In this document: in pieces, positions 16,379 through 42,865 of the stretch | How positions within the stretch are numbered: the stretch's first letter is position 1 | Layout: each line of letters begins with the position of its first letter | DNA from: Chloroflexota bacterium | GTDB taxonomy: Bacteria; Chloroflexota; Anaerolineae; JAYEMR01 | Direction of reading: 5' to 3' | DNA length: 42,865 nt | Assembly (NCBI GenBank): GCA_034718215.1 | Contig: JAYEMR010000111.1 | Coordinates: 1 to 42,865, forward strand | Translations under genes and position numbers: made by a program | Notes under the pieces: generated by a model | Databases searched by the model: none | Seen by the model: the letters and a program-made list of their open reading frames with translations, nothing else | Told to the model about the DNA's origin: nothing

Positions 16379-16503
16379 CAGCTGGTAATTACCCCCATCT
16401 CACCTGTACCAGGTACTGGCAGATTTGAGGGCTGAGGCGTCCTCGCCGAAGCCCTTCCATGGCCAGCATACCCCTCGGCGGGGACGCCTTGGTCCTCTCG
16501 TTG
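16379..16503. repeat. Repeat B, about 125-bp REPIN-like hairpin element (empty copy)
   Basis: Near-identical to 42522-42732 apart from an 87-bp insertion there; long stem at 16427-16449 / 16475-16497. Confidence 0.85.
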
Positions 16504-19722: not shown

Positions 19723-19727
19723 TCCCT

Positions 19728-19814
19728 CCTGCCTGAGCACCCGTGCCTGCCCGCACCTGATCGAGTACAGGTGATCGGGTACAGGCAGACAGGACAGGCA
19801 GGCAGGGGACAGGC
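19728..19814 (-). repeat. 66-bp CCTG...CAGG element (19728-19793) plus adjacent CAGG-rich half elements
   Basis: Reverse complement differs from 42615-42680 at only 2 positions. Confidence 0.9.
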
Positions 19815-23253: not shown

Positions 23254-24024
23254 ATGGGAAAAACAACAGAGACCCTGGAGCGCCCTTCTGCCTGTCCCCC
23301 GCCTGTGCGGACAGGTGCCTGCGCCCAGTGCCTCCTGCCTGCGCAGACAGGGGACAGGCGCCTACCTGCGGGGGCAGGAGACAGGACCCGATCCCTTACA
23401 GGACAGGCAGGCACGGGTGAGCAGATGGCTGTGCAAGAGCCTCGCTGGGCCACAGAGATAGCACAACTTTGGTCGCCCCAGGGCCAGTGGACGGAGGAGG
23501 AGTACTTCTCCCTGCCGGACACTAATCGGCTGGTCGAGCTTTCAGAAGGAGAGTTGATCATGCCACCTCATCCGACATATAGTCACCAAGTCGCTGTAGG
23601 TGAATTGTACACTGCCCTTCGGAGCTTTGTGCATCAGCATGGCCTGGGGACTGTCCTGCTTGCGCCCTTGCCAGTGCGACTGTGGCCTGGTAAGATCCGA
23701 GAGCCAGATATCTTTTTCATATCCCAGGAGCACAGCGATCGCATCGGCGAACAGGCATGTGGCCCACCGGACCTGGTCGTGGAAGTGCTCTCCCCGGCTA
23801 CCTGGCGCACGGACAGGCGGGAGAAGATGGTGGAATATGCTCAGGCTGGCATTCAAGAATGCTGGATTGTGGACCCGGACGAATGCACCGTCGAGGTCTT
23901 CGTCCTCCGTGAAGGGGCATATGTGTTTCTGGGCAAGTGGGGCGCTGATCAAACAGCTCGTTCCGAGAAGCTCCCTGGTTTCGAGATCTCTGTGGACGCG
24001 ATTTTCTTCCATAACGGTGATTAA
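23254..24024 (+). CDS. Uma2 family (PD-(D/E)xK) endonuclease with an in-frame repeat insertion near the N-terminus
   Basis: WTEEEYFSLP, ELSEGEL, REPDI, PDLVVEVLSP, DRREK..EY, WIVDP. ATG 23254 follows AGGTGA; alternative start at 23425. Confidence 0.88.
   Translation: MGKTTETLERPSACPPPVRTGACAQCLLPAQTGDRRLPAGAGDRTRSLTGQAGTGEQMAVQEPRWATEIAQLWSPQGQWTEEEYFSLPDTNRLVELSEGELIMPPHPTYSHQVAVGELYTALRSFVHQHGLGTVLLAPLPVRLWPGKIREPDIFFISQEHSDRIGEQACGPPDLVVEVLSPATWRTDRREKMVEYAQAGIQECWIVDPDECTVEVFVLREGAYVFLGKWGADQTARSEKLPGFEISVDAIFFHNGD
23284..23427 (+). repeat. About 144-bp multiply nested CCTG...CAGG composite
   Basis: Ends match the 66-bp element (cttctgcctgt | acccgatc...ggcaggcacgggtgagcag), with further CCTG/CAGG hairpins inserted at the T^A step. 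Confidence 0.8.
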
Positions 24025-26166: not shown

Positions 26167-26170
26167 AAAA

Positions 26171-28825: not shown

Positions 28826-29221
28826 ATGGCGCTACAAGCACTCCCCAGAGTCCGTGAGGCACTGGGCGATGAGGGAACTGAAGAGCTCTTGCACTGGCTG
28901 GATCGACGGATTGAGGAACGAGCGGTGCCGCGAGACGAATATCGCCTGTGGGCGACAGGCCGAGAGGTCCTTTCCCGGCTTGATCTTCTGGAGGAGGATG
29001 TCTCACTGTTGCGAGATGAGCTTACCCAAACGCGGATGGAGTTCCGAGAGGATATGGGCCAACTTCGGCTGGAGATGAACGAGCGTTTCGACCGGATGAA
29101 TGAGCGCTTCGATCAGATGTATGACCGGATGCTGCTACAGACGCGCTGGCTGATCGGCTCTCTGGCCCTCATTGGCACTGTAATCAGCGCCTTATTGGCC
29201 ATTGGTCAATTCGTAAGGTAG
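28826..29221 (+). CDS. DUF1640/CCDC90-like coiled-coil protein with C-terminal membrane anchor
   Basis: EALGDEGTEEL head, MNERFDRMNERFD heptads, C-terminal TM (RWLIGSLALIGTVISALL). Confidence 0.7.
   Translation: MALQALPRVREALGDEGTEELLHWLDRRIEERAVPRDEYRLWATGREVLSRLDLLEEDVSLLRDELTQTRMEFREDMGQLRLEMNERFDRMNERFDQMYDRMLLQTRWLIGSLALIGTVISALLAIGQFVR
28943..28960. repeat. 18-bp in-frame palindromic insert
   Basis: C-GCCTGT-GGGCG-ACAGGC hairpin encoding RLWATG, between DEY and REVLSRL. Confidence 0.6.
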
Positions 29222-29223
29222 AT

Positions 29224-30627: not shown

Positions 30628-30692
30628 AGCTGCGCTATCTCATTCCCGCTGATTTTCGGGAGAGGAAACAACGCCATGGTTCGGCCGGGGGT

Positions 30693-30730
30693 AAACTACC
30701 ACGCTGCACTGCGGCGTGGTAGTTTGTTTT
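30693..30730 (+). terminator. Intrinsic terminator after lysC
   Basis: AAACTACCACGCTGC-ACT-GCGGCGTGGTAGTTT followed by GTTTT. Confidence 0.75.
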
Positions 30731-30752
30731 GGGCCAACGCCTGCGCTAGAGG

Positions 30753-30781
30753 TAGACAAGGGGTATGAAACACGCTATAAT
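30753..30781 (+). promoter_or_regulatory. hisS promoter
   Basis: TAGACA-17-TATAAT, then an AAGGAGG RBS. Confidence 0.65.
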
Positions 30782-30798
30782 CCTCATAAGGAGGATAT

Positions 30799-32070
30799 AT
30801 GACTCTGTACAAAGCACCTCGTGGCACCCAGGACATCCTGCCCGATGAGCAGCCCTACTGGCAGTATGTCAGACAGCGCATCCAGGCCATCGCTCAGCTC
30901 TACGGCTATCAGCCCATGGATGTGCCCCTCTTTGAGCAGACTTCCATCTTCGTCCGAGGTGTGGGCGAGGGGACGGACATGGTGGATAAAGAGATGTACT
31001 CCTTCCGAGATCGGGGGGGAGATGAGCTGACTCTTCGTCCTGAGCTCACCGCCGGCATTGTCCGCGCCTATCTCGAGCATGGCATGCATGTGTGGCCTCA
31101 GCCGGTGAAGGTCTATTCCATCGGCCCAGCTTTCCGCTACGAGAGGCCACAGGCCGGGCGCTACAGACAGCACTACCAGCTCAGCGTGGAGGCCATCGGC
31201 GAGCAGGATCCGGCGCTCGATGCGGAAGTGATGTCTATGGCCTGGCATCTCTACGACCACCTGGGGTTTCAGGGCCTTTCCCTTCAACTCAACTCCATCG
31301 GCTGTCCCAAGTGTCGGCCGGGCTACATCCGGGCCTTGAGGGCCTACTACAACCATCACCTGGAGGAGATATGCGAGGACTGCCACCGCCGCCTGGAAGT
31401 CAATCCCCTGCGCGTGCTGGACTGCAAGGCTGAGAGCTGCCAGCCTATCATCGCTGAGGCCCCTCACAGCACCGATTTCCTCTGCCAGGAATGCCGAGAG
31501 CACTTCTCTACCCTCCTCGGTTACCTGGACCGCCTGGGCCTTCCCTACACCATCAACCACCGGTTGGTGCGGGGCCTGGACTACTACACCAAGACCGTCT
31601 TCGAGGTCTGGGCCAAGGGGATTGGGGCTCAGAACGCCGTCTGCGGTGGGGGACGGTATGATGTGCTGGCCGAATCCCTGGGAGGGGATCACGCGCCCGG
31701 TGTGGGATTCGGCTCGGGTTTGGAGCGGATCATTCTGACCATGAAGCAGCAGGATATGAAGGTGCCAGAGCTGCCCCAGCCCCAGGTCATGATCCTCTAT
31801 CTAGGCCAGGAGGCCAAGGAGGCTGCGCTGCAATTGGCGAATGAGCTGCGTTTGGCTGGCATCCGAACTGAGACCTCCTTCGGTGACCGCAGCCTGCGAG
31901 CCCAGCTCCGTAACGCTGATCGCGCAGAAGTGGCCTACACTTGCATTCTGGGGGAGAGGGAGCTGCGGTCCCAACAGGTGGCGGTGAAGGACATGGCCGC
32001 TGGGGGCCAACAGGCGGTGGCCAGGGACTCCGTGGTCGACTGGCTGAAGACACATCTGGGAATGGCGTAG
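30799..32070 (+). CDS. hisS: Histidine--tRNA ligase
   Basis: PRGTQD, LRPELTA, FRYERPQAGRYR, LVRGLDYY, GGGRYD, GLER. Confidence 0.97.
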   Translation: MTLYKAPRGTQDILPDEQPYWQYVRQRIQAIAQLYGYQPMDVPLFEQTSIFVRGVGEGTDMVDKEMYSFRDRGGDELTLRPELTAGIVRAYLEHGMHVWPQPVKVYSIGPAFRYERPQAGRYRQHYQLSVEAIGEQDPALDAEVMSMAWHLYDHLGFQGLSLQLNSIGCPKCRPGYIRALRAYYNHHLEEICEDCHRRLEVNPLRVLDCKAESCQPIIAEAPHSTDFLCQECREHFSTLLGYLDRLGLPYTINHRLVRGLDYYTKTVFEVWAKGIGAQNAVCGGGRYDVLAESLGGDHAPGVGFGSGLERIILTMKQQDMKVPELPQPQVMILYLGQEAKEAALQLANELRLAGIRTETSFGDRSLRAQLRNADRAEVAYTCILGERELRSQQVAVKDMAAGGQQAVARDSVVDWLKTHLGMA

Positions 32071-32098
32071 AGCGTGGAGGGTGGAGCGTGAAGCGCAA
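32064..32098 (+). repeat. 7-bp tandem repeats (AGCGTGG-like x5) at the hisS/nadK junction
   Basis: ggcgtag agcgtgg agggtgg agcgtga agcgcaa. Confidence 0.65.
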
Positions 32099-32978
32099 AT
32101 ACGCAATCGAAAAGGGCATCGGCGTTCTCCATCATCCCCAGATCCCAGCCTCCCGAGTCTTGGGCGCTGAGATCGCCCGCTGGCTGGAGGCGCGAGGTTA
32201 TCGCGCTTGGCAGGGCTCCGGGTGGGACGAGGAGACTGTGCGAGCTCACATCGCCCGGCTCGACCTCCTGATCGTCTTGGGAGGCGATGGCACCATAATC
32301 CGCTCGGCGCGGATGGGAACCCATCACCAGGTGCCCATCCTGGGGGTCAAAATGGGACAGCTGGGGTTCCTGGCCGAGGCCCAGCCTGAGGAATGGGAGG
32401 AGAAGCTGGCGCAGGTGATGAGGGGTGAGTACTGGGTGGAGGAGAGAATGATGCTCTCCGCCAAGTTGGGGCGGGATGGCGAGCACCTGCAGAGCTTCGA
32501 GGCGTTGAATGATGTGGTGGTCAGCAGGGGCGGCCTGGCCCGCGTCATCAGCCTGGCGGCTGAGGTTAATGGAGCCCCCCTGACTACCTATCTGGGTGAT
32601 GGTTTGATCGTCTCCACCGCCACTGGCTGCACGGCCTATTCCCTAGCCTGCGGCGGCCCCATACTGCCCCCTGAGCTGCGCAACATCCTGCTGGTACCCA
32701 TCGCCCCTCACCTCAGCCTCGATCGGGCCATAGTCCTGGCCGACGGGGCGACGATATCCATTAATGTGTCCACTGATCACGCTGCCATTCTCACTGTGGA
32801 TGGTCAATCTGCCGTGGATCTAGCTGACGGCGATCGGGTCCTGGTTCAAGCCAGCTCCCACACCGGTCTCTTCGTAAGAACTCAGGAGAGAGGTTACTTC
32901 TACCGGACTTTGATGAAGCGGCTGAGCGGTTCCTATGCTCTGAGAAACGCGGACGAGGAGGGGCAGAAGGAGGGATGA
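32088..32978 (+). CDS. nadK: NAD(+) kinase
   Basis: LGGDGT, GQLGFL, ALNDVV, DGLIVSTATGCTAYSL, VDG. Confidence 0.93.
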   Translation: MKRKYAIEKGIGVLHHPQIPASRVLGAEIARWLEARGYRAWQGSGWDEETVRAHIARLDLLIVLGGDGTIIRSARMGTHHQVPILGVKMGQLGFLAEAQPEEWEEKLAQVMRGEYWVEERMMLSAKLGRDGEHLQSFEALNDVVVSRGGLARVISLAAEVNGAPLTTYLGDGLIVSTATGCTAYSLACGGPILPPELRNILLVPIAPHLSLDRAIVLADGATISINVSTDHAAILTVDGQSAVDLADGDRVLVQASSHTGLFVRTQERGYFYRTLMKRLSGSYALRNADEEGQKEG

Positions 32979-32984
32979 GCAGTA

Positions 32985-34775
32985 ATGCTGGCCGAACTGA
33001 CCATCCGTGACTTCGCGATCATAGATGAGCTTCACCTCACCTTAGGCCCAGCTTTCAACGTCTTGACCGGTGAGACTGGCGCCGGCAAATCCATTATCGT
33101 CGATGCGGTGAGCTTGCTCATGGGTGGATGGGCCACTAGGGAGGTCATCCGCAGCGGCGCAGACCGCGCTCTCATCGAGGGGATATTCTACTTGGAGCCA
33201 AAGCTGCAAGCTGAGGTCAATCCCCTCTTGGCCAGCGATGGACTGGAGGGCGATGACCCCTCCACCCTCAGCCTGGCCCGCGAGATCCAGCGAAAAAAAC
33301 GGAATATCTGCCGGATCAACGGGCGGGCGGTGACATTGTCGGCGCTGGAGGCCGTCGGCCGGCGGCTTGTTGACATCCACGGCCAGAGCGGCCATCTCTC
33401 GCTGCTGCGGGCGCGGGAGCACATTGATTTCCTGGATCGCTACGGAGGGCTGTGGCCCCAGCGGAGGAAGCTGGCGGCCAAAGTCGAGGCGCTGCGGCAG
33501 GTGCGGGAGGAGCTGACTAATCTGAGGCGTGACGAGCGGGAGCTGGCCCGCCGAGTGGACCTTTTGGAATACCAAGTGCAGGAGATCAACGCCGCCGGGC
33601 TGGTTATGGGAGAAGAGGAGGAGCTGCGGGCGGAGCGCACCAGGCTAGCCAACGCCGAGCGACTGCTCACCCTGGCGGAGACGGCCTATCAGTCCCTCTC
33701 CTCCTCTACGGTCAGACAGGACACCGCTGAGGAGGGTCGCCCCGGCGCCTATGACCTTCTGGGGGAGACAATAAAGTCTCTCTCTCAGTTGGTGGAGATT
33801 GACCCCAGCTTGAACGAGGTGTTGCAGGCAGCGGAGGAGCTGAGCTACCGGCTGGAGGATATAATTACCACCGTGCGGGACTACAGAGAGAGTGTGGAAT
33901 ACAATCCCCGTCGTTTGACGCAGGTTGAGGAGCGGTTGAGCCTCGTTCAGGGCCTGAAGCGTAAGTATGGCGATTCAATTGAGGAGATCCTGGCCTTTGG
34001 GCAGCGGGCGGAGGAGGAGCTGGACTCCATCGCCCACAGCGAGGAGCGGATCGAGGAGCTGCGAGCTCAAGAAGAAAAGCTGCTGCGGGAGATAGGGGAG
34101 CTGGGAGCGGTCTTATCTGAGGCGCGTCGCCAAGCCGCCGATGGGTTGAAGGCCAAAGTGGAGAGGGAGCTGGCGGGCCTCTCGATGGGGGACGCTAGAT
34201 TCGACGTTTCCATCGAGCAGCGGGAGGACGCCGAGGGTGCCTGGGCGCCGGCGCCTTTTAGGGCGACGGGCCAGCGTCTGGCCTTCGATCGCACGGGGAT
34301 TGACCACGTGGAGTTCCTCATCTCACCCAACGTGGGCGAGCCGCTCAAGCCGCTGGCGAGCGTGGCCTCCGGCGGCGAGACCTCGCGGCTCATGCTGGCT
34401 CTCAAGACTGTCCTCTCCATGGCCGATGAGACTCCCACCCTCATCTTCGACGAGATTGACGCCGGCATTGGAGGGCGGGTGGGAGAGGTGGTGGGCTACA
34501 AGCTGTGGAGCCTGACCCCTGAGCATCAGGTGCTTTGCGTCACCCACCTGCCGCAGCTGGCAGCCTATGGAGACGCCCACTTCCGTGTGGCCAAGTCAGT
34601 AGTGGGCCGGCGCACCGTGGCCGGCGTCGAGCCGCTCGATGCCGAAGAGCGCATCACAGAGCTAGCGGTCATGCTCGGCGCTGACCGACCTGAGACGCGC
34701 CACAGCGCGGAGGCGATGTTGGCAGAGATAGAGCGGGAGAAGGGCGAGCGGGGCGAGAAAGCCACCCGACGATGA
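32985..34775 (+). CDS. recN: DNA repair protein RecN
   Basis: TGETGAGKS, DIHGQ, ASGGETSR, FDEIDAGIGG, VTHLPQ. Confidence 0.96.
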   Translation: MLAELTIRDFAIIDELHLTLGPAFNVLTGETGAGKSIIVDAVSLLMGGWATREVIRSGADRALIEGIFYLEPKLQAEVNPLLASDGLEGDDPSTLSLAREIQRKKRNICRINGRAVTLSALEAVGRRLVDIHGQSGHLSLLRAREHIDFLDRYGGLWPQRRKLAAKVEALRQVREELTNLRRDERELARRVDLLEYQVQEINAAGLVMGEEEELRAERTRLANAERLLTLAETAYQSLSSSTVRQDTAEEGRPGAYDLLGETIKSLSQLVEIDPSLNEVLQAAEELSYRLEDIITTVRDYRESVEYNPRRLTQVEERLSLVQGLKRKYGDSIEEILAFGQRAEEELDSIAHSEERIEELRAQEEKLLREIGELGAVLSEARRQAADGLKAKVERELAGLSMGDARFDVSIEQREDAEGAWAPAPFRATGQRLAFDRTGIDHVEFLISPNVGEPLKPLASVASGGETSRLMLALKTVLSMADETPTLIFDEIDAGIGGRVGEVVGYKLWSLTPEHQVLCVTHLPQLAAYGDAHFRVAKSVVGRRTVAGVEPLDAEERITELAVMLGADRPETRHSAEAMLAEIEREKGERGEKATRR

Positions 34776-34812
34776 AGTCGTCGGGCTACGAAGCAGCGGG
34801 TGATAAATCACT

Positions 34813-34932
34813 CTCACCCGCACCTGCTCGGGTCCTGTCTGCCTGTACCCGCCCGCGACTGCCCGTGCGCAGGCGATCACCTGTGCCCAATCAGGTGCGG
34901 GCAGGCACGGGTGCGCAGGAAGGACAGGTGAG
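34813..34932 (+). repeat. Nested composite: 66-bp element (34834-34923) carrying an extra 24 bp, inside a CACCTG...CAGGTG hairpin
   Basis: 18 bp + 24-bp insert (34852-34875) + 48 bp align to 42615-42680. Confidence 0.85.
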
Positions 34933-34964
34933 CCCTGGTTGCGCAGGTATTCAGCGGCAGAAAA

Positions 34965-35009
34965 GCCCGATTCACCTGTGCCTGATCAGGTGCAGGCATC
35001 GGGCGCTGC
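34965..35009. repeat. REP-like hairpin GCCCGATTCATCGGGC interrupted by a 22-bp CCTG...CAGG unit with CA duplication
   Basis: gcccgatt-CA-[cctgtgcctgatcaggtgcagg, 34975-34996]-CA-tcgggc. Confidence 0.75.
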
Positions 35010-35026
35010 TCAGTAGCTGGGCGATT

Positions 35027-38000
35027 TCATCGCCCAGTGGTTGCTCTGCGCACACCCAGGGTAATGCGATCCCCCTCCAGCTCGAAGCTTTGGACATAGG
35101 CCCTCGGCGGCGATGGTCCCTCCACCAGGTCGAGTGAGAGTGTCTCGGCCTGGATGTAGGCCGCCTGTTCCGGGTCCTCCATGACCTCAGCCAGTTGCCC
35201 CTCCGCCTGATAGTAGGTGGTGATGCGGTCCTCGATATTGAAGTCGGCCCTCTTGCGCATGTTTTGGATGCGGCGCACCAGATCTCGGGCCAGCCCCTCC
35301 CGCTCCAGCTCCGGCGTCAGGCGAGTGTCCACAGCCACGATGATGCCTCGCTCCTCGGCCACAGCATAGCCCTCACGAGCATGGGTGCGCACCTCCACCT
35401 CCTCCGGCAGCAGCTCAATGGATTGATCCTCCACCTGGATGGCTATCGGCACCCCAGCCTCAACCCGCTGGGCCAACTGCTCAGCGTCCATGCCCGCTAC
35501 TGCCTTCTGCATTTTGGGGAACAATGAGCCATACTTGGGCCCCAGCAGCTGAGGGAGCAGATGGGTCTCGTAGCTCACCAACTCTCCCGCCCGCTCCACA
35601 AAATCCAACCTTTTGACATTCAACTCATCCATTATGATCGCCGACAGCCGATCCAGGCGCTGTCGCTCGCTCTCACTGGCCAGCACCCGCGCTCGGGCCA
35701 AGGGCTGACGCAGTTTCAGGCCCGCTTGAGAGCGCGCCGAACGGCCCAGGCTGGCCGCTCGGATAGCCAGCTCCACGTCCCTCGCTAACTCCTCATCAAT
35801 GAGCGATTCATCGGCCACTGGCCAGTCGTTGTGGTGCACACTCTCCGGAGCCTTCTCATCCGTGGAGCGCACCAGATTCTGATACATCGCCTCTACGAAG
35901 AAGGGTGTGAAGGGAGCCAGAACCTTGCACAGTGTGGTCAGCACCCTGTAGAGCGTGCGATAGGCGGCGTCTTTGTCCGCGTCCTGTTCGCTCTTCCAGA
36001 ATCGGCGGCGGGAACGGCGCACGTACCAGTTGCTCAATTCGTCAATGAAGGCCTCGATGGGAGCGGTGGCTCCATAGACATCGTAGTCGTCAAGGTGCTC
36101 AGTGACCTTCTGTACCAGCACTTGAAGCTCGGAGAGGATCCATCTATCGAGTAATGAGTAACGCCTGCACCCGTGGCGCAGGCACAGGTGAGTCAATGGG
36201 TCAGCCTTCGTTACCCCACCCGGCTCCCAGCCGTCAATGTTGGCGTAGGTCACGAAGAAGGAGTAGACATTCCAAAGGGGGATCAGGAAGCGCCGTCGCG
36301 TCTCATCGGCCAGGGCGTAGCCGAAGCGGAGGTCTTTCTCGGGCCGGTGGGAGCAGAACATCCAGCGCATCACATCCACTCCCATGTTCTCAGCCGCCTC
36401 ATCGAACCAGATGGCGTTGCCCCAGCTTTTGTGCATCTGCCGGCCATCCTCCGCCAGGAGCAGGGCGTAGGAGAAGACATTGCGGAAGGGAGCCTTACGC
36501 TCCATGATAGTGCTCATAGCCAGGAGGGAGTAGAACCAGTTTCGGAATTGAAGCAGGAAGGTCTCGCTGATTAGATCAGCGGGGAACCATTTCTCCCAGT
36601 ACTGGCGGTCGCGGTGGTAATTCAAGGTGGAAAAAGCCACGATTCCCGCGTCCAGCCAGGGATTTCCCACGTCGGGAACGCGGGAGGCGGGAGTTCCGCA
36701 CTTCGGGCAGCGGATCTTCACCGCATCTATCCAAGGGCGGTGAGGAGAATGCCCCTCGAACTCCTCCCAGCCCTCGACGGCCCGCTCTTTAAGTTCCTCC
36801 TTGCTGCCGATGACGGTGAAATGGCCGCACTTTGGGCACTCCCAGATGGGCAGGGCTAAGCCCCAGTAACGTTTCTTGGAGATCATCCAGTCCTGCATGT
36901 TGCGCAGCCAGTCCATCTCCCGGTCGAAGCCGAAGCTCGGAATCCAGCGGGTATTCTGCATCACCTCCATGATCTGATAGCGGAGGTTGCGCTTTTTCTC
37001 CTCCTCGGTCACCTCCTCGTAGCCCTTGTCCAGCTGATCGCCCATGTCAATGAACCACTCATCCACCAGACGAAATACCAGCTCCGTGCCGCAGCGCCAG
37101 CAGACGGGATAGCGGTGGGTGTAATCCTCCACTTTGTACAGCAGCCCCTTGCGTTCCAAGTCCTCGAAGATAGGCTCTGCGACCTCGGCCACATTTAGGC
37201 CCGTGAGCCAGTCGAACCCATTGATGAAGACTCCGGACTCGTCCAACGGCGCGAGCACAGGCAGGTCGTGTTCCTTGCTGAGCTCAAAGTCCTCAGCGCC
37301 GCAGCCAGGCGCGATGTGGACCACGCCCGTGCCCTCCTCCTCGCTCACCTCGTCCCATAGGATCACGCGATGGGGATAGGGACGCTCCTGCTCCTGGGCA
37401 ACCGCCAGGGTTGCCCCTACGGCGGGTAACTCATCGAAGGGCCCATCGTAGGCCCAGTCCTCCAGCGCCCTCCCCGGCATCTCCGCCAGCACCTCGTAGT
37501 CGCCGTCCAGGATGTGTAACGTGCCCTTGCAGAGGTAGAGGATCTCATCGTTATGGCGGACCTTGACGTAGGTCAGGTCGGGGCCGACGGCGGCAGCGAC
37601 GTTGGAGGTGAGGGTCCAGGGGGTGGTGGTCCACACCAGAAGCGATTCGTTTTGACGAGCTCGGAGGGGGAATCGCAAGGTGATGCTGGGGTGAGTCAGC
37701 TCCTGGTAGCCCTCGGTGACAATTTCGTGCTGGCTGATCCCAGTGCCGCAGCGGGGGCACCAGGGCATTACATCGTGGCCTTTGTAGATCCAGCCCTGTT
37801 CATGGCACTTCTTGAGGGCCTCCCAGATGTGGTAGTTGTTATCATCAGAGAAGGTGAAGTAGGATCCTCCAAGCTCGGGGGTGCCCAGCCGCCCGACGAT
37901 CTGCTCCACCGTGCCGGCCACCTTGCCTCGGGTCCCCTGGACGCTGATAACCTGCTCCGGGTCTTCCTCCATCTTATCCCGTAGCCAGCGCAGGAAATCG

Positions 38001-38440
38001 GGGTCATTCCAGTCCATCCAATATCCCAGCCGCTGAGATTGCTCGGTCTGCACGGCAGCATATTTGAGCGCCCGCTGTTTGCAGAGGTTGACGAAGGGGC
38101 CGATGCCGTAGGCTTCGATATCGCGCTTGGACTCGAAACCCAACTCCTTTTCCACCTCCACCTCGACCCACAGCCCTTGGCAGTCGAAGCCATTCTGGTA
38201 GCGGGTGTCGTAGCCTTTCATGGCCCAGTAGCGGTGGAAGAGATCCTTGTAGGTGCGGCCCCAGGCGTGATGCGTGCCCATGGGATTGTTGGCTGTAATG
38301 GGGCCATCAATGAAGGACCAGCGCTCGTTGCCTTGGTTCAACTCCCGGCGCTTCTCAAAAGCCTCGCTTTCCTCCCACCACTTTAAGATTTCTCTTTCCT
38401 GAGCCACGAAATCAACGTGAGTTGGCACCTCTTTGAACAT
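35027..38440 (-). CDS. ileS: Isoleucine--tRNA ligase, type 2 (GxHH signature)
   Basis: DGPITAN..GTHH, GFDCQGL, WTTTPWTL editing motif, GTGVVHIAPG, DWMISKKRYWG, QMHKS, LSNWYVRRSRRRFW, EGLARDLVRRIQ. Confidence 0.96.
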   Translation of the reverse strand: MFKEVPTHVDFVAQEREILKWWEESEAFEKRRELNQGNERWSFIDGPITANNPMGTHHAWGRTYKDLFHRYWAMKGYDTRYQNGFDCQGLWVEVEVEKELGFESKRDIEAYGIGPFVNLCKQRALKYAAVQTEQSQRLGYWMDWNDPDFLRWLRDKMEEDPEQVISVQGTRGKVAGTVEQIVGRLGTPELGGSYFTFSDDNNYHIWEALKKCHEQGWIYKGHDVMPWCPRCGTGISQHEIVTEGYQELTHPSITLRFPLRARQNESLLVWTTTPWTLTSNVAAAVGPDLTYVKVRHNDEILYLCKGTLHILDGDYEVLAEMPGRALEDWAYDGPFDELPAVGATLAVAQEQERPYPHRVILWDEVSEEEGTGVVHIAPGCGAEDFELSKEHDLPVLAPLDESGVFINGFDWLTGLNVAEVAEPIFEDLERKGLLYKVEDYTHRYPVCWRCGTELVFRLVDEWFIDMGDQLDKGYEEVTEEEKKRNLRYQIMEVMQNTRWIPSFGFDREMDWLRNMQDWMISKKRYWGLALPIWECPKCGHFTVIGSKEELKERAVEGWEEFEGHSPHRPWIDAVKIRCPKCGTPASRVPDVGNPWLDAGIVAFSTLNYHRDRQYWEKWFPADLISETFLLQFRNWFYSLLAMSTIMERKAPFRNVFSYALLLAEDGRQMHKSWGNAIWFDEAAENMGVDVMRWMFCSHRPEKDLRFGYALADETRRRFLIPLWNVYSFFVTYANIDGWEPGGVTKADPLTHLCLRHGCRRYSLLDRWILSELQVLVQKVTEHLDDYDVYGATAPIEAFIDELSNWYVRRSRRRFWKSEQDADKDAAYRTLYRVLTTLCKVLAPFTPFFVEAMYQNLVRSTDEKAPESVHHNDWPVADESLIDEELARDVELAIRAASLGRSARSQAGLKLRQPLARARVLASESERQRLDRLSAIIMDELNVKRLDFVERAGELVSYETHLLPQLLGPKYGSLFPKMQKAVAGMDAEQLAQRVEAGVPIAIQVEDQSIELLPEEVEVRTHAREGYAVAEERGIIVAVDTRLTPELEREGLARDLVRRIQNMRKRADFNIEDRITTYYQAEGQLAEVMEDPEQAAYIQAETLSLDLVEGPSPPRAYVQSFELEGDRITLGVRRATTGR
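36162..36190. repeat. In-frame CCTG...CAGG element inside ileS
   Basis: Minus strand CA-[cctgtgcctgcgccacgggtgcagg]-CG, 25+2 = 27 bp, encoding HLCLRHGCR(R); shares CACGGGTGC with the 66-bp element. Confidence 0.75.
37396..37420 (-). repeat. GTAG-type REP in frame inside ileS
   Basis: GTAG-GGGCAACC-CTGGC-GGTTGCCC: GTAG tetranucleotide plus a perfect 8-bp stem. Confidence 0.7.
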
Positions 38441-38542
38441 GCTTCTCCTCCTATTAACAACGAGCTCACAACGGACTGGAGAATCAAACAGACGAAGCCT
38501 ATCCGTGCAGATGGGCTTGCCCATGCGGACGGAAAAGCCCGT

Positions 38543-38570
38543 TTGACAAAACGCTCATAAAGACTACAAT
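38543..38570 (+). promoter_or_regulatory. Toxin-antitoxin module promoter
   Basis: TTGACA-16-TACAAT. Confidence 0.6.
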
Positions 38571-38603
38571 ATACACAGTATGCACAAGGGAAAGGGGAAT
38601 CAA

Positions 38604-38888
38604 ATGGCGATCTTAGCGCGTGCGATCTACAAAAAAGGGGTTCTGCATCCCAAAGAGCCGCTTGACATAGGTGAGCAAGCGGAAGTTGAGCTCCTTATCT
38701 TCCCCATCAGACAAGACACGCTGGCTGATGTGCTGGGTTTTGATCCAAGCGATACAAAAGCCCTAGCAGCCTCGGCTGAGCGCCATCGTCGGGCGATTCT
38801 ACGCATGGCTGGTACTGCCAGCAGTGATGAGCCCCACGACGGCTCGGTTCATCACGATAGATACATCTACACGGCAAGCTGGCGATGA
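38604..38888 (+). CDS. DUF104/AF2212-like antitoxin
   Basis: AIYKKGVLHPKEPLDIGEQAEV N-terminus; S..HDRYIY C-terminus typical of VapB-type partners. Confidence 0.78.
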   Translation: MAILARAIYKKGVLHPKEPLDIGEQAEVELLIFPIRQDTLADVLGFDPSDTKALAASAERHRRAILRMAGTASSDEPHDGSVHHDRYIYTASWR

Positions 38889-39304
38889 CCAAAGAACTAG
38901 CCTTCGTTGATACCAGCGCATGGTTTGCCATAAAGGATGCCCAGGATCAATATCACGCAGCGGCTATAGGTTTTCTGGCCGATTTCCAGGGCGACTTTGT
39001 GACCAGCAACTTTGTGATTGATGAAACCATTACTCTGGTACTCGTGCGATTGGGGTATTGGGCTGCCTTGGGGGTAGGTGAACAGCTTTGGAAAGGCAAA
39101 TTAGCACACAACGTGCGGATCACTGAAGACGACGAACGAGCTGCCTGGGAGCTCTTCAAGCGATACTCGGATAAAGGATTCTCCTTCACCGACTGCCCCA
39201 GCTTTGCGGTCATGGAGCGATTAGAGCTCCGCCGAGCCTTTGCTTTTGATGAAAATTTCTCGCAGACTGGCCAATTCTTACGCGTTCCCCGGTTGCAGGA
39301 ATAA
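38885..39304 (+). CDS. vapC: PIN-domain VapC toxin
   Basis: FVDTSAW, VIDET, FSFTD, AFDENF; ATGA overlap with the antitoxin. Confidence 0.88.
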   Translation: MTKELAFVDTSAWFAIKDAQDQYHAAAIGFLADFQGDFVTSNFVIDETITLVLVRLGYWAALGVGEQLWKGKLAHNVRITEDDERAAWELFKRYSDKGFSFTDCPSFAVMERLELRRAFAFDENFSQTGQFLRVPRLQE

Positions 39305-39387
39305 CAGCGGACTACAGAACTAGATAGACTAGAATTCAACGAACTTTCAGTCAGTTAAATTCCTCGGTCCGTTGTTGGCATCCTCTG

Positions 39388-39924
39388 CTAGTGCCCCAGT
39401 ACCTCCTCGATCTCCCCTCGTTCCTTCTCCTCAAAGGAAACGCTCCCGAAGCTGCGAACTATTTTCCGCACGCGATCCCGGCGCTGGAGCATCCGTGGCT
39501 CTCTGGCCTTCCACACCCCGGTTACCTGGTTGATCACCAGCCGGCTGTCGCCCTGCACTGTGACCTCGCATTGTTGAGGATCGGCACCCAGGGCGGTGAG
39601 CCGGCCGCGTAAGTCCTCCAAGGCATGGATCAGGGCCTCGTACTCCGCCTCGTTGTTGGTCATCCTCCCCCCGAACTCTAGGTGCACCACCTGAGGCAGC
39701 TCATCACTAAATTGGAGAGCGTAGCTTCCATAGCCGGGGCCGGGATTTACCCGGCTGCCGCCGTCAAAGAGGACCTTCGGCTGCCAAGCCTTGCCAGCAC
39801 CCCCATCGCGGGAGGACAGAAGGCGCTGAAAAGGAGGCCAATCGGCTAGTTGAGCGAAGAGCCAGCGCCGGTCGTTATCAGAGAGGGCGCGGATGGATTT
39901 CCATATCTCACGGACGTCTTCCAC
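39388..39924 (-). CDS. Ribonuclease HI family protein with N-terminal extension
   Basis: FDGGSRVNPG, TNNEAEYEAL, GDSRLVINQVTGVWK. Confidence 0.85.
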   Translation of the reverse strand: MEDVREIWKSIRALSDNDRRWLFAQLADWPPFQRLLSSRDGGAGKAWQPKVLFDGGSRVNPGPGYGSYALQFSDELPQVVHLEFGGRMTNNEAEYEALIHALEDLRGRLTALGADPQQCEVTVQGDSRLVINQVTGVWKAREPRMLQRRDRVRKIVRSFGSVSFEEKERGEIEEVLGH

Positions 39925-39938
39925 TTATCTCCTCCACT

Positions 39939-40256
39939 AAAAAGCCCTCGCCCCTTAAGGGATAAGGGACGAGGGCTCTCATACTTCTACCCCCGCGGTA
40001 CCACCCTCCTACCTGACGACAGACAGGATTGCCCCGTCTAGCAGGGCCACTCTGTGGGGTACGCATCCATACCCCCGTCTGGATAACGGTGGACGAGGCC
40101 GGCTGAGCTTACTTGCTGGCTGGCCGTGCTATCTGCCATTCGTCAGCGTTCAGTCAGCAGCTCTGGGAGGATTTTCGACAACAACTCGTCACCTGGCTTT
40201 CACCATCCCAGGCTCGCTGTCACGAGGTGATGTTGCTTACTCATTCCCATCATCGC
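39939..40256 (-). promoter_or_regulatory. T-box riboswitch, Ile specifier (AUC at 40172-40170), with intrinsic terminator
   Basis: GA motif, AGUA, AGCGAG / GGUGAAA, GAAA-AUC specifier loop, CCGUUA, T-box AGGGUGGUACCGCG, terminator stem 39943-39977 followed by a U-tract. Confidence 0.92.
40008..40027. repeat. 20-bp CCTG...CAGG-family element inside the T-box leader
   Basis: CCTACCTG-ACGA-CAGACAGG at a T^A step, directly 5' of the T-box sequence on the minus strand. Confidence 0.65.
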
Positions 40257-40290
40257 TTGTATAAAAGATGATAGCGCAGTGAGAAAACCG

Positions 40291-41145
40291 TCAAATTCCG
40301 GTTGCATCCCCTGACTCTCGGGAAAGCTGAGCATATAAAGCCAAAAGGTTCGCCTGATGTAGCTGGGGAGCCAATCCGCCCAGGGATAAGCGTGAGAGGC
40401 CAAAGTCCTCTATCCCCCAGCTCTTCAGTTGCTCTCGCTCTCCACCATCTGCCACATGTGCGGCCACGCGATCGTGGATCTCGTGCAAGTAGGCAATCCG
40501 TTCTTCTATAATGCTGGGTATCTCACCTCGGAGTAGGACCTCGCCGTGGCCCTGGACAAGGTGATCCAGTTTCATCTCCTTCAGCCAACCAAGCGTGTCT
40601 ATCATATCTTGCCAGTCACCCCATACTATGTAGGGAACTGGCATCATTATATCCCCCGCGAAGAGCAATTGATCTTCACGGATGTGGACCACGATAGAAT
40701 CTGGGGTGGGACCAGGGGCATGGATTAACTCCAAAGTTCTGTCGCCTAGGTGCACGAACATGCGCCCCCTGTCAAATAGGACATTGGGCAGGCGTAGCTC
40801 CACCTCGGCCAGTTCTGGGGTCTCCTCTTTGGCCTGGCGCAGGCTCTCCTCTCCATGGCGCTCCAAATACAGCCTCGTTCCCTTCCAGGAGATGATATCC
40901 GCCTCCGAGTACAGATAGTTGCCGTACACATGATCGGCGTGATAGTGAGTATTGATGACATAAAGAACATCTTCGGAGGAGCGCTCACTTATGAAATCGC
41001 GCATAGCACGCGATTCCTGAGGAAAGGGTAGGGTATCAATTATGACCGTCCCCTCCGGAGAGAATATCGCCCCCGCAGTGACCTGAAGGTACATCTCGCT
41101 GGTGAATACGTAGATATCATTCACAACCTGCTCTCTGAACACCAT
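40291..41145 (-). CDS. MBL-fold metallo-hydrolase (cyclase-like)
   Basis: NTHYHADH, PGPT, FAGD, QGHG. Confidence 0.85.
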   Translation of the reverse strand: MVFREQVVNDIYVFTSEMYLQVTAGAIFSPEGTVIIDTLPFPQESRAMRDFISERSSEDVLYVINTHYHADHVYGNYLYSEADIISWKGTRLYLERHGEESLRQAKEETPELAEVELRLPNVLFDRGRMFVHLGDRTLELIHAPGPTPDSIVVHIREDQLLFAGDIMMPVPYIVWGDWQDMIDTLGWLKEMKLDHLVQGHGEVLLRGEIPSIIEERIAYLHEIHDRVAAHVADGGEREQLKSWGIEDFGLSRLSLGGLAPQLHQANLLALYAQLSRESGDATGI

Positions 41146-41172
41146 CTCCCTCCTGATCACAGAGCAAGGGTA

Positions 41173-41420
41173 TGGCTTAGCTCACTGTAAAGACAAACCA
41201 CCAGGCTTCAGATACCCGATAGAAAACCCCGCCATGCCGTGTGCCAAGAGGTTTTGACCCTGTTTATAAAGTGGGGTGCTGCCCCAAGCACATACCGCTG
41301 TACTCAGGAACTAACTCCCCGATCTCATAGGTGTTAGCTCAAACCATATGGGCATCACGAACATAGCAGGGCATTTGTAGTATACCACAAAATTCCAAAG
41401 CGCGCGAGTGAGCTAAGCCA
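41173..41420. repeat. Perfect 14-bp inverted repeat (41173-41186 / 41407-41420) bracketing the 6S RNA gene and its promoter
   Basis: TGGCTTAGCTCACT / AGTGAGCTAAGCCA. Confidence 0.85.
41226..41373 (-). ncRNA. ssrS: 6S RNA
   Basis: Closing stem CCCUGCUAUGUUCGUG ... CACGGCAUGGCGGGG, internal UUUGAGC, GGGAG, CACCCCAC and GGGUCAAA blocks with a central bubble; upstream TG-G-TATACT (41379-41387). Ends approximate. Confidence 0.8.
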
Positions 41421-41436
41421 CTTGAGAAAGGGTATG

Positions 41437-42429
41437 CTACTCGCCTGTCTGTTCTGTCTCCATCTGGCCCTGCAGTCCCTCCAGGTTGAGCATGAATGGG
41501 CTCCCCGAGGGAACCATCATCACCCGGATATTGGGTGACAGCTTCTCGATGTAGCGATAGGTGATAAGGTTCTCATTCTGAGCGATCTGTTCGTTGATGA
41601 GACGCAGTGCCTCCGCCTCGCCCTCCGCCTTGGTGATAGCCGCCTGCTTCACCCCTTCGGCCTCGATCTCCCTCCGCTCCGCCTCCCGCTCCTCCCGCTG
41701 GAGCACAAACTTCATCTGCTCCGCCTCCTGCTGGGCGACCTGCTTCTGCTCAATGGCTTTAGAGTACTCCTCGGTGAAGATGATGTTGCGGACATCGAAG
41801 GAGAGGAGTTCGAATCCCTCGCTCTCCAACTGCTCCCTCAATGCTTCGGTGATCTGCTCCTGGATCTCGGCCCGCTTTGGGCCATAGACATCGGTAACTG
41901 TGTTCTGAGAGATGTGGTGCCTCACGATGGAGCGTATGGTGGGGCGGATGAGGATCTCCATGTAGCCATTGCGAAAGTTGTTGTGGACGTAGGCTGCCTT
42001 TTCCGGATCAATGCGGTAGCGGGTTGTGGAGTCAATCCCCACCTTCAGCCCCTCTATCGTCGGCGACCAGAGGGTGTCGCTCTCCCCTCGAGATGGATTG
42101 CTGGTCATGGTGTAGGCCTGCTCCATGACCGGGTAGCGGAAGACCTGGTTGATGTAGGGGCTTACGAAATGCGTCCCTGGCCCAAGGCCCCCCGGCCGTG
42201 TGCCGGTGAAGATATTGAACACCACCCCCACCTCACCCGCATCAATGACCACCATGCTGACGCTCAGGGTGCTGACCACTGCCGCGGCGATGAGAAGAAG
42301 CACAGCCACAGGGACGGATATCTTGCTCCTCCGTCCTTGGCTCCGCTGCACCATTATGTAGCCAATGTAGGCCACCAGGCTCGCCCAAAGCAAAGCGGCG
42401 ACGACTCTTAGAAAACTGGCGAAAAACAT
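41437..42429 (-). CDS. SPFH/prohibitin family membrane protein
   Basis: Two N-terminal TM helices, AGEVGV, AIEQKQVAQQ, AEGEAEA coiled coil, YIEKL. Confidence 0.88.
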   Translation of the reverse strand: MFFASFLRVVAALLWASLVAYIGYIMVQRSQGRRSKISVPVAVLLLIAAAVVSTLSVSMVVIDAGEVGVVFNIFTGTRPGGLGPGTHFVSPYINQVFRYPVMEQAYTMTSNPSRGESDTLWSPTIEGLKVGIDSTTRYRIDPEKAAYVHNNFRNGYMEILIRPTIRSIVRHHISQNTVTDVYGPKRAEIQEQITEALREQLESEGFELLSFDVRNIIFTEEYSKAIEQKQVAQQEAEQMKFVLQREEREAERREIEAEGVKQAAITKAEGEAEALRLINEQIAQNENLITYRYIEKLSPNIRVMMVPSGSPFMLNLEGLQGQMETEQTGE

Positions 42430-42521
42430 TTTCTCCCCCTCTCGATTAGCTTCCAACACTCAACCTCAATGATACCATGATTCGAGCTAAAAGCAAGCAC
42501 CCTATCTCATGTGCCTTCAAA

Positions 42522-42732
42522 CAGCTGGTGATTACCCACATCTCACCTGTACCAGGTACTGGCAGATTCGAGGCTGAGGCGTCCTCGCCGAAACTGTTCC
42601 CCTGTCCGTCGGACCCTGTCTGCCTGTACCCGATCACCTGTACCCGATCAGGTGCGGGCAGGCACGGGTGCGCAGGCAGGAGACGGGATGGCCAGCATAC
42701 CCCTCGGCGGGGAAGCCTCGTTCCTCTTGTTG
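42522..42732. repeat. Repeat B, filled copy with an 87-bp nested insertion (42601-42687)
   Basis: Aligns to 16379-16503. The insert is a 21-bp palindrome split by the 66-bp element (42615-42680). Confidence 0.9.
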
Positions 42733-42748
42733 AAGATGTGACTTCCTA

Positions 42749-42801
42749 TGTCAAACAGCAACTTCTCGCTGTTTGACACTCTCCCCGACCCGTGGTATAT
42801 T
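42749..42801 (+). promoter_or_regulatory. Sigma70 promoter whose -35 lies in an 11-bp inverted repeat
   Basis: TTGACA (42773-42778)-17-TATATT with TG; TGTCAAACAGC-8-GCTGTTTGACA. Confidence 0.65.
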
Positions 42802-42865
42802 AACACTGCGGGGAGAGGGGAAAGCGGAAGGCTGTTGTCGCTGTTCAGCGGCTGCCACGCTTTCC

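What the first reader, a model, noticed from the sequence alone, without database searches (positions are those of the whole stretch)
42522..42732. Empty versus filled site shows a nested ('matryoshka') family of tiny mobile palindromes
Seen: repeat B occurs twice. At 16448-16464 its loop reads gaagcccttcc|atggcc; at 42590-42693 it reads gaaactgttcc|[87 bp]|atggcc, with no target duplication. The 87 bp are a 21-bp palindrome (cctgtccgtcggac|agacggg) split by a 66-bp element. That 66-bp element is itself a 38-bp unit carrying a 26-bp CCTG...CAGG unit flanked by a CA duplication. The same 66-mer recurs at 19728-19793 (2 mismatches) and 34834-34923. Inference: composites move as units and old copies act as targets for new ones. 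This points to an active non-autonomous micro-element system with no enzyme encoded in this window. I do not recognise it as a named family.
Basis: partly seen in the sequence, partly recalled or inferred. Interest (0 to 1): 0.85.

Follow-up and report, generated by a model that had tools for sequence, protein, structure and literature searches.

The report
Nested tiny mobile DNA palindromes
An uncultured Chloroflexota bacterium carries hundreds of 17- to 24-base hairpin repeats that have inserted into each other's loops like nested dolls; this is a very small kind of mobile DNA, closest to REP elements and cyanobacterial small dispersed repeats.

Summary
The window's two copies of repeat B differ by 87 bp in the loop. 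Those 87 bp are four nested palindromes: P1 (21 nt) > U3 (18) > U6 (22) > U2 (22).

Genome-wide (1.9-Mb MAG, class Anaerolineae by best hits):
- The 22-nt consensus CCYGYRCCYGATCRGGYRCRGG occurs 91 times. The reversed control gives 0.
- 83 of 91 copies are bracketed by one repeated dinucleotide (CA/TG, or CG).
- Removing "unit + dinucleotide" step by step resolves 140 insertions over three levels.
- Insertions into another 22-nt unit always sit at the same C-R next to GAT in the loop.
- A second class (18-21 nt, for example U3 with 54 copies) inserts without duplication.

The family was not found in a same-genus genome or in 400 other Chloroflexota genomes. It does occur in a roughly 80-85% identical relative in metagenomes, at different sites. 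One of those sites lies in frame inside a gene, and this genome has a matching empty CA there.

No enzyme lies in the window. The genome has two RAYT-type HUH transposase genes, neither flanked by these units. The most likely mechanism is trans-mobilised single-stranded hairpins cut and joined at CA, but this is inferred, not shown.

Verdict: a real, new variant of REP/SDR-like micro-elements.

The parts
42525..42600 (+). Repeat B, left arm of a long imperfect hairpin. B is about 125 nt when empty, and one search lists 25 full or partial copies in the genome.
   Evidence: All of B is absent from the orthologous intergenic region of same-genus genome G001. G001 has 1-2 B-like copies, with an empty loop and no U1.
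42544..42564 (+). U1: a 17-nt palindrome (42546-42562) bracketed by CA (42544-45 and 42563-64), lying inside B's left arm.
   Evidence: 53 of 62 genomic U1 copies have identical flanking dinucleotides (44 CA, 9 TG). U1 is doubled in tandem in four B copies.
42601..42614 (+). P1, left part (14 nt) of a 21-nt palindrome inserted in B's loop without duplication.
   Evidence: P1 occurs intact 5 times and its left half 28 times.
42615..42622 (+). U3, left 8 nt of the 18-nt palindrome CCTGTCTGCGCAGGCAGG. The last two bases (TG) are the left copy of the duplicated dinucleotide.
   Evidence: U3 has 54 copies in the genome, 0 for the reversed control and 0 in 60 relatives. It has no flanking duplication.
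42623..42636 (+). U6, left 14 nt of a 22-nt unit. It is on the strand that reads TG at its flanks. It ends with the CA target.
42637..42660 (+). U2: the innermost intact 22-nt unit (42637-42658) plus the duplicated CA (42659-60). This is one 24-nt insertion.
   Evidence: 24-nt insertion with a 2-nt ambiguity, 15 empty counterparts.
42661..42670 (+). U6 right 8 nt, plus the right copy of the duplicated TG (42669-70).
   Evidence: Removing the inner unit restores an intact U6.
42671..42680 (+). U3, right 10 nt.
42681..42687 (+). P1, right 7 nt.
42688..42732 (+). Repeat B, right arm.
   Evidence: Positions 42565-42720 fold as one extended DNA hairpin (-41.5 kcal/mol, z -3.8).
16379..16503 (+). 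Repeat B with an empty loop. It carries U1. This is the paralogous 'empty site'.
19726..19793 (-). Second copy of the U3>U6>U2 composite. It is inverted, has 2 mismatches, is not inside B, and lies about 30 nt upstream of a promoter-like motif.
34834..34923 (+). Third composite. U3 holds U6, and U6 holds two insertions: a different 22-nt unit with a CG duplication at U6 positions 9-10 (34850-34875), and a U2-like unit with a CA duplication at positions 13-14 (34878-34903).
34973..34998 (+). Solo 22-nt unit (U4 subtype) bracketed by CA, lying inside another short repeat.
   Evidence: (D7).
23287..23423 (.). A further cluster of family members (U3 and U3b-like units) upstream of the repeated gene segment at 23474.
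   Evidence: Not dissected.

Best explanation
The 87 bp are four nested members of a lineage-specific family of non-coding micro-palindromes that spread by insertion.

Class A:
- It comprises 22-nt quasi-palindromes (consensus CCYGYRCCYGATCRGGYRCRGG) and the 17-nt U1.
- Each insertion adds the unit plus 2 nt, so the unit is bracketed by the same dinucleotide. This is CA on the strand with T at unit positions 5 and 17, or CG for one subfamily.
- Targets are a C-R dinucleotide preceded by T or a pyrimidine and followed by purines.
- The loop of every unit re-creates that target (GAT-CA-GG). New copies therefore land in old ones at one fixed position, mostly in the opposite orientation. This builds L-L-R-R 'matryoshka' hairpins.

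Class B:
- It comprises 18-21-nt CCTGTC...GRCAGG palindromes (U3, P1, U3b, P2').
- They insert without duplication between a pyrimidine and a purine, for example at GT^AC inside class A units or in the loop of repeat B.

The units encode nothing, so they must be moved in trans.

My inferred mechanism is that the units move as single-stranded DNA hairpins handled by an HUH Y1 transposase of the RAYT/IS200 kind. The enzyme would cut and rejoin at the CA on both sides of the hairpin, as E. coli TnpA-REP does at CT. The genome has two RAYT-class genes.

Shown: nesting, the 2-nt duplication, the fixed target position, the subfamily-specific dinucleotide, restriction to this lineage, and different insertion sites in relatives.
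Inferred: the enzyme, the single-stranded intermediate, and present-day activity.
For: Abundance: 91 exact matches against 0 for the reversed control.

Flanking dinucleotide:
- 83 of 91 units have identical flanking dinucleotides (CA 38, TG 35, CG 10). At shifted offsets the figure is 0-6 of 91.
- After orienting by T5/T17, 89 CA/CA, 10 CG/CG and 3 TG/TG are seen among 113 oriented units, out of 119 matches to a broadened pattern.
- The dinucleotide follows the subfamily. CG/CG brackets 7 of 8 distinct-context copies of one subtype, against 1 of 87 for the others (Fisher p = 6e-9).

Insertion lengths and nesting:
- An unbiased empty-versus-filled scan found 756 filled intervals. Length peaks are at 24 nt (73), 14 (52), 10 (42), 18 (28), 42 (26) and 48 (26). 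14 + 10 = 24 fits arm-wise pieces bounded by CA.
- Peeling resolved 140 events on levels 1, 2 and 3 (104, 31 and 5). Of these, 38 lie in intact 22-nt hosts, all at positions 13-14 (9-10 on the other strand), and 30 of 38 are in the opposite orientation to the host.

Target in unique DNA: at 25 solo sites, position -1 is T or C in 21 of 25 (background 61%) and position +1 is A or G in 21 of 25 (background 53%).

Lineage:
- 0 matches in same-genus G001, single matches in 2 of 59 same-class genomes, and 0 of 400 further Chloroflexota genomes.
- In metagenome contigs, 20 of 41 loci with a hit carry the unit with CA on both sides. 14 of these 41 loci also align to G000 at 79-85% nt identity.
- Sites there are not shared with this genome at the two loci where the alignment runs through the site, L124 and L125.
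- At L140 the unit sits in frame in a roughly 600-aa ORF, and G000 has a single CA at the aligned position.
- B as a whole is absent at the orthologous G001 site.

Enzyme candidates:
- 3 PF01797 matches in G000. Two exceed the NCBIfam cut-off for REP-associated tyrosine transposase (101.1 and 87.9 bits against 80).
- G001, which lacks the units, has only 26-35% identical homologues of these two.

Precedent: passages of Messing et al. [quoted passage not shown]
Against: - None of the three HUH genes is flanked by these units. Each has its own local, low-copy hairpins. The usual REPtron arrangement is therefore not met.
- There is no GTAG or CGTC tag.
- The HUH genes' presence in G000 and absence of orthologues in G001 is a single comparison.
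- The orientation of units shows no relation to local GC skew, so there is no sign of a replication-strand bias. Skew may be uninformative here.
- DNA-fold energies of the two strands are similar, so strand asymmetry rests on sequence only. The CA/T5-T17 link could simply reflect the inverted repeats that include the flanks.
- A simple base-pairing 'guide' does not explain why one subtype prefers CG.
- Class B shows no duplication and may use another route.
- The identical-composite copies could come from recombination or gene conversion.
- The MAG is 86.8% complete, so the true enzyme may be unassembled or of another type.
Confidence: 0.5

Rival explanations
1. The units are miniature MITE-like elements moved by a DDE transposase. 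They have terminal inverted repeats (CCYG...CRGG), and a staggered 2-bp cut gives a true target-site duplication.
For: The ends are palindromic and a fixed 2-nt duplication is seen in 83 of 91 units. There is a clear target preference.
Against: - 22 nt is far below the size of MITEs as I know them (recalled).
- Insertion orientation relative to the asymmetric CA target is 99 to 3 rather than random.
- The duplicated dinucleotide follows the unit subtype (p = 6e-9). A protein-determined target-site duplication does not predict that.
- Class B has no duplication.
- No parent insertion sequence with matching ends was seen. I searched only for PF01797 and PF07282, so DDE families were not screened.
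Confidence: 0.15
2. The mechanism is not yet known and is the same as for cyanobacterial small dispersed repeats (SDRs). That would make it neither HUH nor DDE, for example an RNA- or repair-mediated insertion of short hairpins.
For: The size (22-24 nt), the nesting and the narrow lineage distribution match my recall of Elhai et al. 2008. A citing passage says SDR5 may insert at HIP1 (GCGATCGC) sites, and the units here centre on GATC. No cognate enzyme is adjacent to any unit.
Against: There is no positive evidence for any alternative enzyme. The SDR paper is not held, so its features could not be compared. The flanking-dinucleotide rule fits known HUH chemistry.
Confidence: 0.2
3. There is no transposition. 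The patterns arise from local processes on hairpins, such as replication slippage, template switching, unequal recombination and gene conversion, plus selection for structured intergenic DNA.
For: - Arm-wise 10- and 14-nt length differences.
- Tandem arrays: a 19-nt period for U1 and tandem 24-mers on C110.
- Nested forms extend one continuous hairpin.
Against: - 25 solo units lie in unrelated unique DNA.
- Units sit at non-orthologous sites in relatives, and one in-frame copy lies in a conserved gene with a matching empty CA here.
- Identical units occur on many contigs.
Confidence: 0.08
4. This is an assembly artefact. De Bruijn graph paths through short repeats create chimeric nested structures.
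For: The window copy's combination is unique. Logan contigs of four runs all break inside the element. The depth in the last bin is about 20 times the flanks.
Against: The same units with the same CA brackets occur in independently assembled metagenome contigs and at more than 100 places in this MAG. Contig ends are not enriched near the family (15 of 294 ends against 4.9% of random positions).
Confidence: 0.05

Closest known systems
REP elements / REPINs with RAYT (TnpA-REP) transposases
   Same: Both are short (20-40 bp) imperfect palindromes in high copy and mostly extragenic. In-gene, in-frame copies occur (Di Nocera et al. 2013, abstract and passages). TnpA-REP cuts at a fixed dinucleotide that may lie on either side of the hairpin (Messing et al. 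2012, passages). RAYT-class genes are present in this genome.
   Different: These units have no GTAG or CGTC tag and no RAYT gene bracketed by them. They are nested inside each other's loops rather than arranged as inverted doublets or BIME-type alternating arrays. Every unit is bracketed by a duplicated CA or CG.
Small dispersed repeats (SDR) of Nostocaceae (Elhai et al. 2008, Genome Res 18:1484)
   Same: From recall only: 21-27-nt dispersed, apparently mobile repeats found inserted in one another and in other repeats, restricted to a narrow lineage, with an unknown enzyme. A citing passage confirms they are short mobile elements, that HIP1 may be an insertion site for SDR5, and that they were not found outside Nostocaceae.
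   Different: The phylum differs (Chloroflexota) and presumably the sequences do too. The CA/CG duplication rule, the fixed loop target and the alternating orientation are not features I can attribute to SDRs. The paper is not held, so nothing could be compared directly.
IS200/IS605 insertion sequences and their palindrome-associated derivatives
   Same: Both involve hairpin-dependent, strand-specific insertion next to a short T-rich target, with element-encoded (DNA-guided) choice of the cleavage site (passages). That would explain a subtype-specific dinucleotide.
   Different: Those elements have two different ends and are hundreds to thousands of bp long. They insert 3' of a tetra- or pentanucleotide without duplication (recalled). 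No TnpB was found here.
MITEs of the Tc1/mariner-IS630 type
   Same: Both have inverted termini and a 2-bp duplication of a fixed dinucleotide.
   Different: These units are an order of magnitude smaller. Their orientation is fixed relative to the target strand, and the target dinucleotide follows the subtype.

Membership tests
REP / REPIN-RAYT system | Short (20-40 bp) imperfect palindromes, high copy number, mainly extragenic | tested here: met
   91 exact 22-nt units, 54 U3 and 62 U1. Only 34 of 119 units lie deep inside open frames of 200 aa or more, against 73% of the genome.
REP / REPIN-RAYT system | Unpaired GTAG or CGTC tag at one end of the hairpin (Di Nocera 2013 abstract) | tested here: not met
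   Units begin with CCYG and end with CRGG, and the flanks are CA/CG. No GTAG or CGTC is present.
REP / REPIN-RAYT system | A RAYT gene flanked by its cognate REPs (REPtron) | tested here: not met
   The three PF01797 genes (C76, C32, C105) are flanked by other, local hairpins and no family unit lies within 4 kb. The genome is only 86.8% complete.
REP / REPIN-RAYT system | Cleavage and strand transfer by the RAYT at a fixed dinucleotide beside the hairpin | not testable with these tools
   Only an analogy is available: CA on both sides of 89 of 113 oriented units, against CT for E. coli TnpA-REP.
REP / REPIN-RAYT system | REPs arranged as inverted doublets (REPINs) or BIME arrays | not tested
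   Nesting and tandem arrays were seen. Spaced inverted doublets were not counted.
Cyanobacterial SDR families | 21-27-nt dispersed repeats inserted in one another (recalled definition) | tested here: met
   22-nt units with 24-nt insertions on three nesting levels.
Cyanobacterial SDR families | Sequence and structure match to SDR1-8, and occurrence in Nostocaceae only (passage) | not testable with these tools
   The paper and its sequences are not held. The host here is Chloroflexota, so it cannot be one of those families by descent as far as is known.
MITE (DDE-driven) | Terminal inverted repeats plus a fixed-length target-site duplication | tested here: met
   Palindromic ends and a 2-nt duplication in 83 of 91 units.
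MITE (DDE-driven) | Derived from, and mobilised by, a full-length IS with the same ends; orientation independent of the target strand | tested here: inconclusive
   No parent element was seen, but DDE families were not screened. Orientation is strongly biased, 99 to 3, which argues against this family.
IS200/IS605-derived elements | TnpA (Y1) with or without TnpB; distinct left and right hairpin ends; no duplication | tested here: not met
   There is no PF07282 match. The PF01797 matches are RAYT-class, not IS200-class (IS200 model 26.4 and 19.1 bits against a cut-off of 55). The units are single palindromes with a duplication.

The most novel reading that the evidence does not exclude
A 24-nt single-stranded DNA transposon, the smallest mobile DNA known. 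One hairpin would carry the recognition site, specify its own target dinucleotide (CA or CG by subtype) and regenerate that target in its loop, so that the family grows by self-insertion. It would be driven by 'orphan' RAYT-class HUH enzymes that are not flanked by their substrates. If so, the same logic may explain the unexplained cyanobacterial SDRs, and it shows how 8-codon in-frame peptide insertions are seeded in proteins.
Probability: 0.3. Interest if true: 0.8.

Novelty: new variant of a known kind. Interest (0 to 1): 0.62.

Why it matters
How REP-like micro-repeats multiply is still unclear. In passages I read, Messing et al. 2012 say the mechanism through which REPs are propagated remains unclear.

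This family leaves unusually readable footprints:
- a fixed 2-nt duplication;
- a single target position in the loop;
- a target dinucleotide that follows the subtype;
- alternating orientation between nesting levels;
- half-unit products.

These footprints give concrete, testable rules for an enzyme assay with 26-nt oligonucleotides.

The family also shows that units of 22-24 nt can be complete mobile modules. They can land in frame in genes and add 8 codons. A species-level burst can occur while a same-genus genome has none: hundreds of copies here, none found in the one same-genus genome held.

In practice, such repeats break short-read graphs, so copy-specific structures in MAGs need long-read confirmation.

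Tried and rejected
- Reads. The look-up of sequencing runs gave 4 runs of one study, labelled brine metagenome. One may be the source of this DNA. All are kept only as Logan contigs. When laid on 22900-42865 they break at the repeats, and the longest contig stops at 42553. This gives no information on empty alleles, misassembly or activity.
- GC skew against unit orientation showed no association (Fisher p = 0.69 for all units, 1.0 for solo units, 0.34 for U1). This is uninformative.
- DNA-fold energies of the two strands differ by 1.5 kcal/mol or less and in both directions, so I dropped a claim that one strand forms the better hairpin.
- Contig ends are not enriched near the family (15 of 294 against 4.9%).
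- The 'phasing' test for 10- and 14-nt pieces gave 34 of 42 and 33 of 52. Its controls at other lengths are too few and also high, so this is only weak support.
- The orthologous tsaD-E2 and recN-ileS intergenic regions of G001 could not serve as empty sites, because synteny or contigs break there.
- TnpB (PF07282): no match in G000.
- Rfam: only 6S RNA at gathering threshold, and chance-level hits (E = 0.57 and 0.79) on the element.
- Homologues of the two RAYTs. The C76 type has relatives at 91, 88 and 78% identity from JGI and ENA sources, and the C32 type has many at 79% or less. I could therefore not test whether they sit in the unit-bearing relative.
- Literature. Five searches found no description of such elements in Chloroflexota. 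Di Nocera 2013 mentions GTAG repeats in Chloroflexi without naming a species in the main text. Its supplementary tables, which are closed, may list them.
- Elhai 2008 is not held.

Full report
WHAT IS THERE

The window is contig C111 of a 1.9-Mb, 147-contig MAG (59.5% GC, 86.8% complete). Its TsaD protein is closest to Anaerolineae/Chloroflexota MAGs at 60-65% identity.

Repeat B occurs at 16379-16503 and at 42522-42732. The second copy has 87 extra bp exactly in the loop, with no shiftable junction. The 66/68-mer inside it recurs inverted at 19726-19793 (2 mismatches). It recurs again, with one more 24-nt insertion, at 34834-34923.

GENOME-WIDE CONTEXT

One search lists 25 full or partial B copies. 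Their loops show a graded series:
- empty: 4 copies;
- P1+U3: 2 copies;
- P1+P2': 2 copies;
- P1+U3 plus an 18-nt unit: 4 copies;
- P1+P2'+U6+U2: 7 copies;
- P1+U3+U6+U2: the window copy only.

An assumption-free scan looked for 'A directly followed by B' against 'A...B' pairs of 12-mers. It found 756 filled intervals, with sharp length peaks at 24 nt (73), 14 (52), 10 (42), 18 (28), 42 (26) and 48 (26). The dominant 24-nt events all have a 2-nt ambiguity.

CLASS A

The 22-nt consensus CCYGYRCCYGATCRGGYRCRGG has 91 matches, against 0 for the reversed control. Of these, 83 of 91 are bracketed by the same dinucleotide (CA 38, TG 35, CG 10). At shifted offsets the figure is 0-6 of 91.

I oriented units by the internal asymmetry (T at positions 5 and 17). 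This gives CA/CA 89, CG/CG 10 and TG/TG 3 among 113 oriented units, out of 119 matches to a broadened pattern. The unit is therefore inserted in a fixed orientation relative to the strand on which the target reads CA.

The dinucleotide follows the subtype. CG/CG brackets 7 of 8 distinct-context copies of one subtype, against 1 of 87 for all others (p = 6e-9).

Iteratively removing 'unit + one dinucleotide copy' resolves 140 insertions (104, 31 and 5 on levels 1-3). Of these, 38 lie in an intact 22-nt host. All 38 sit at positions 13-14 on the CA strand, which is 9-10 on the other strand. In 30 of 38 the guest is inverted relative to the host.

U6-type units prefer the CA in the centre of U3. 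At 25 solo sites in unique DNA the target is T/Y-rich before the CA and purine-rich after it.

The 17-nt U1 follows the same rule: 53 of 62 copies have identical flanks, and it forms tandem arrays with a 19-nt period.

The intact-U6 junction occurs 28 times.

CLASS B

U3 has 54 copies, against 0 for the control and 0 in 60 relatives. It has no duplication. Its left neighbour is a pyrimidine in 50 of 54 copies and its right neighbour a purine in 46 of 54. Eleven copies split the GTAC of class A units and 8 lie in P1. P1 is intact 5 times, and its left half occurs 28 times.

STRUCTURE

Each nesting extends one hairpin. Positions 42565-42720 fold as single-stranded DNA into one long stem (-41.5 kcal/mol, z -3.8). 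With their CA flanks, the 26-mers offer two alternative hairpins with 6-bp stems and 8-nt loops that include the flanking CA. Both strands fold about equally well.

DISTRIBUTION AND MOBILITY

The 22-nt pattern was not found in the one same-genus genome (G001, 94% complete, genes 77-84% identical at nt level). It occurs once each in 2 of 59 same-class genomes and in 0 of 400 further Chloroflexota genomes.

At the orthologous intergenic region after the Band-7 gene, G001 has about 25 nt where the window has about 270 nt. All of B is missing there. G001's own B-like copy has an empty loop and lacks U1.

A scan of metagenome contigs gave 41 loci:
- 20 carry the unit with CA on both sides;
- 14 of the 41 align to G000 at 79-85% nt identity;
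- the other hits lie mostly in higher-GC contigs with unrelated flanks and look like chance.

In that relative the units are at other places than here:
- At L124 and L125, the G000 orthologous spacers lack the unit.
- At L140 the unit lies in frame in a conserved ORF of about 600 aa and adds PVPDQVQA. G000 has a single CA at the aligned position, with a further 3-nt difference nearby.

The family has therefore inserted independently in two sister lineages.

Units are depleted from long open frames: 34 of 119 lie inside them, against 73% of the genome.

ENZYME

Nothing in the window qualifies. The genome has three PF01797 matches and no TnpB. Two pass NCBIfam's REP-associated tyrosine transposase model (101.1 and 87.9 bits, cut-off 80).

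None of the three is flanked by family units. Their own flanking hairpins are local and low-copy. G001 has only 26-35% identical homologues of the two RAYT-class proteins.

Passages of Messing et al. 2012 state that E. coli TnpA-REP cuts single-stranded DNA at a CT dinucleotide on either side of the hairpin. They also state that bases next to the hairpin foot choose this site, and that the enzyme can transfer strands. The footprints here fit that chemistry better than a DDE cut-and-paste:
- the same dinucleotide on both sides;
- a fixed strand;
- a dinucleotide that follows the subtype;
- a target exposed in a loop;
- half-unit pieces bounded by CA.

This is inference. I put the mobile, self-targeting nature of the family at about 0.9 and the HUH/single-strand mechanism at about 0.5.

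COMPARISON AND NOVELTY

The family works like REPs and, from recall, like the SDRs of Nostocaceae. It fails two REP membership tests, the GTAG/CGTC tag and the REPtron arrangement. It cannot be compared with the SDR sequences because the paper is not held.

In five literature searches I found no description of nested 22-nt units with a CA/CG bracket in Chloroflexota. The closed supplements of Di Nocera et al. 2013 might list Chloroflexi REPs.

I rate it a new variant of a known kind.

CAVEATS

- This is a MAG built from short reads.
- The window copy's exact combination is unique and could not be verified with reads.
- Whether composites move as units, and whether the family is active now, remains open.

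Noticed in passing
window 41222-41375 (-): 6S/SsrS RNA gene (Rfam RF00013, 61.6 bits, gathering score 46.4), between a metallo-beta-lactamase-fold gene and the Band-7 gene.
   Followed up: no
window about 19823-19852 and about 42770-42800 (+): Both composites lie just upstream of a near-identical promoter-like motif: TTTGACAC, about 17 nt, then TGGTAT(C/A)(A/T)T. The motif and its spacing are conserved at the orthologous places in same-genus genome G001. The insertions stop short of it.
   Followed up: partly
window 42733-42764 (+); also G000 C145:6965-6985: Another short repeat (gatgtgacttcctatgtcaaa) abuts B on the right here. It replaces B's left end, inverted, in the C145 copy. It is also absent from the G001 orthologous spacer.
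   Followed up: no
window 34761-34811 and 35010-35042; G000 C123:8921, C3:17178, C40:14803: A different host repeat (...gggcGATGaagtcgcc...) carries 44-46-nt insertions bracketed by a 4-nt GATG repeat at three other loci. This may be a second, unrelated nested micro-element system.
   Followed up: no
G000, at least 16 loci, e.g. C108, C121:4944, C13:2576: A stem-loop repeat (ctgggcacccgc, 14-15 variable nt, caacccaaatga) whose 14-nt centre differs between copies.
   Followed up: no
G000 C105:8135-10982: A RAYT-like HUH gene (176 aa, below the NCBIfam cut-off) sits amid perfect 32-34-nt palindromes (AGACCTGACAGGTTTT...). They occur only on this contig, next to sequence repeated on both sides of the gene.
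   Followed up: partly
window 12704-12720: A U1 copy lies at the junction of two same-strand ORFs (11459-12742 and 12739-14415). It is possibly inside a coding start or end.
   Followed up: no
window 23474-23567 and 26315-26408: A 94-nt direct repeat at 76% identity inside two ORFs, pointing to paralogous genes (family D2). The family was not identified.
   Followed up: no
L140:2410-2431 (metagenome relative) against G000 C144:about 17500: A 22-nt unit plus CA is read in frame as PVPDQVQA inside a conserved dehydrogenase-like ORF of about 600 aa. G000 lacks it.
   Followed up: yes
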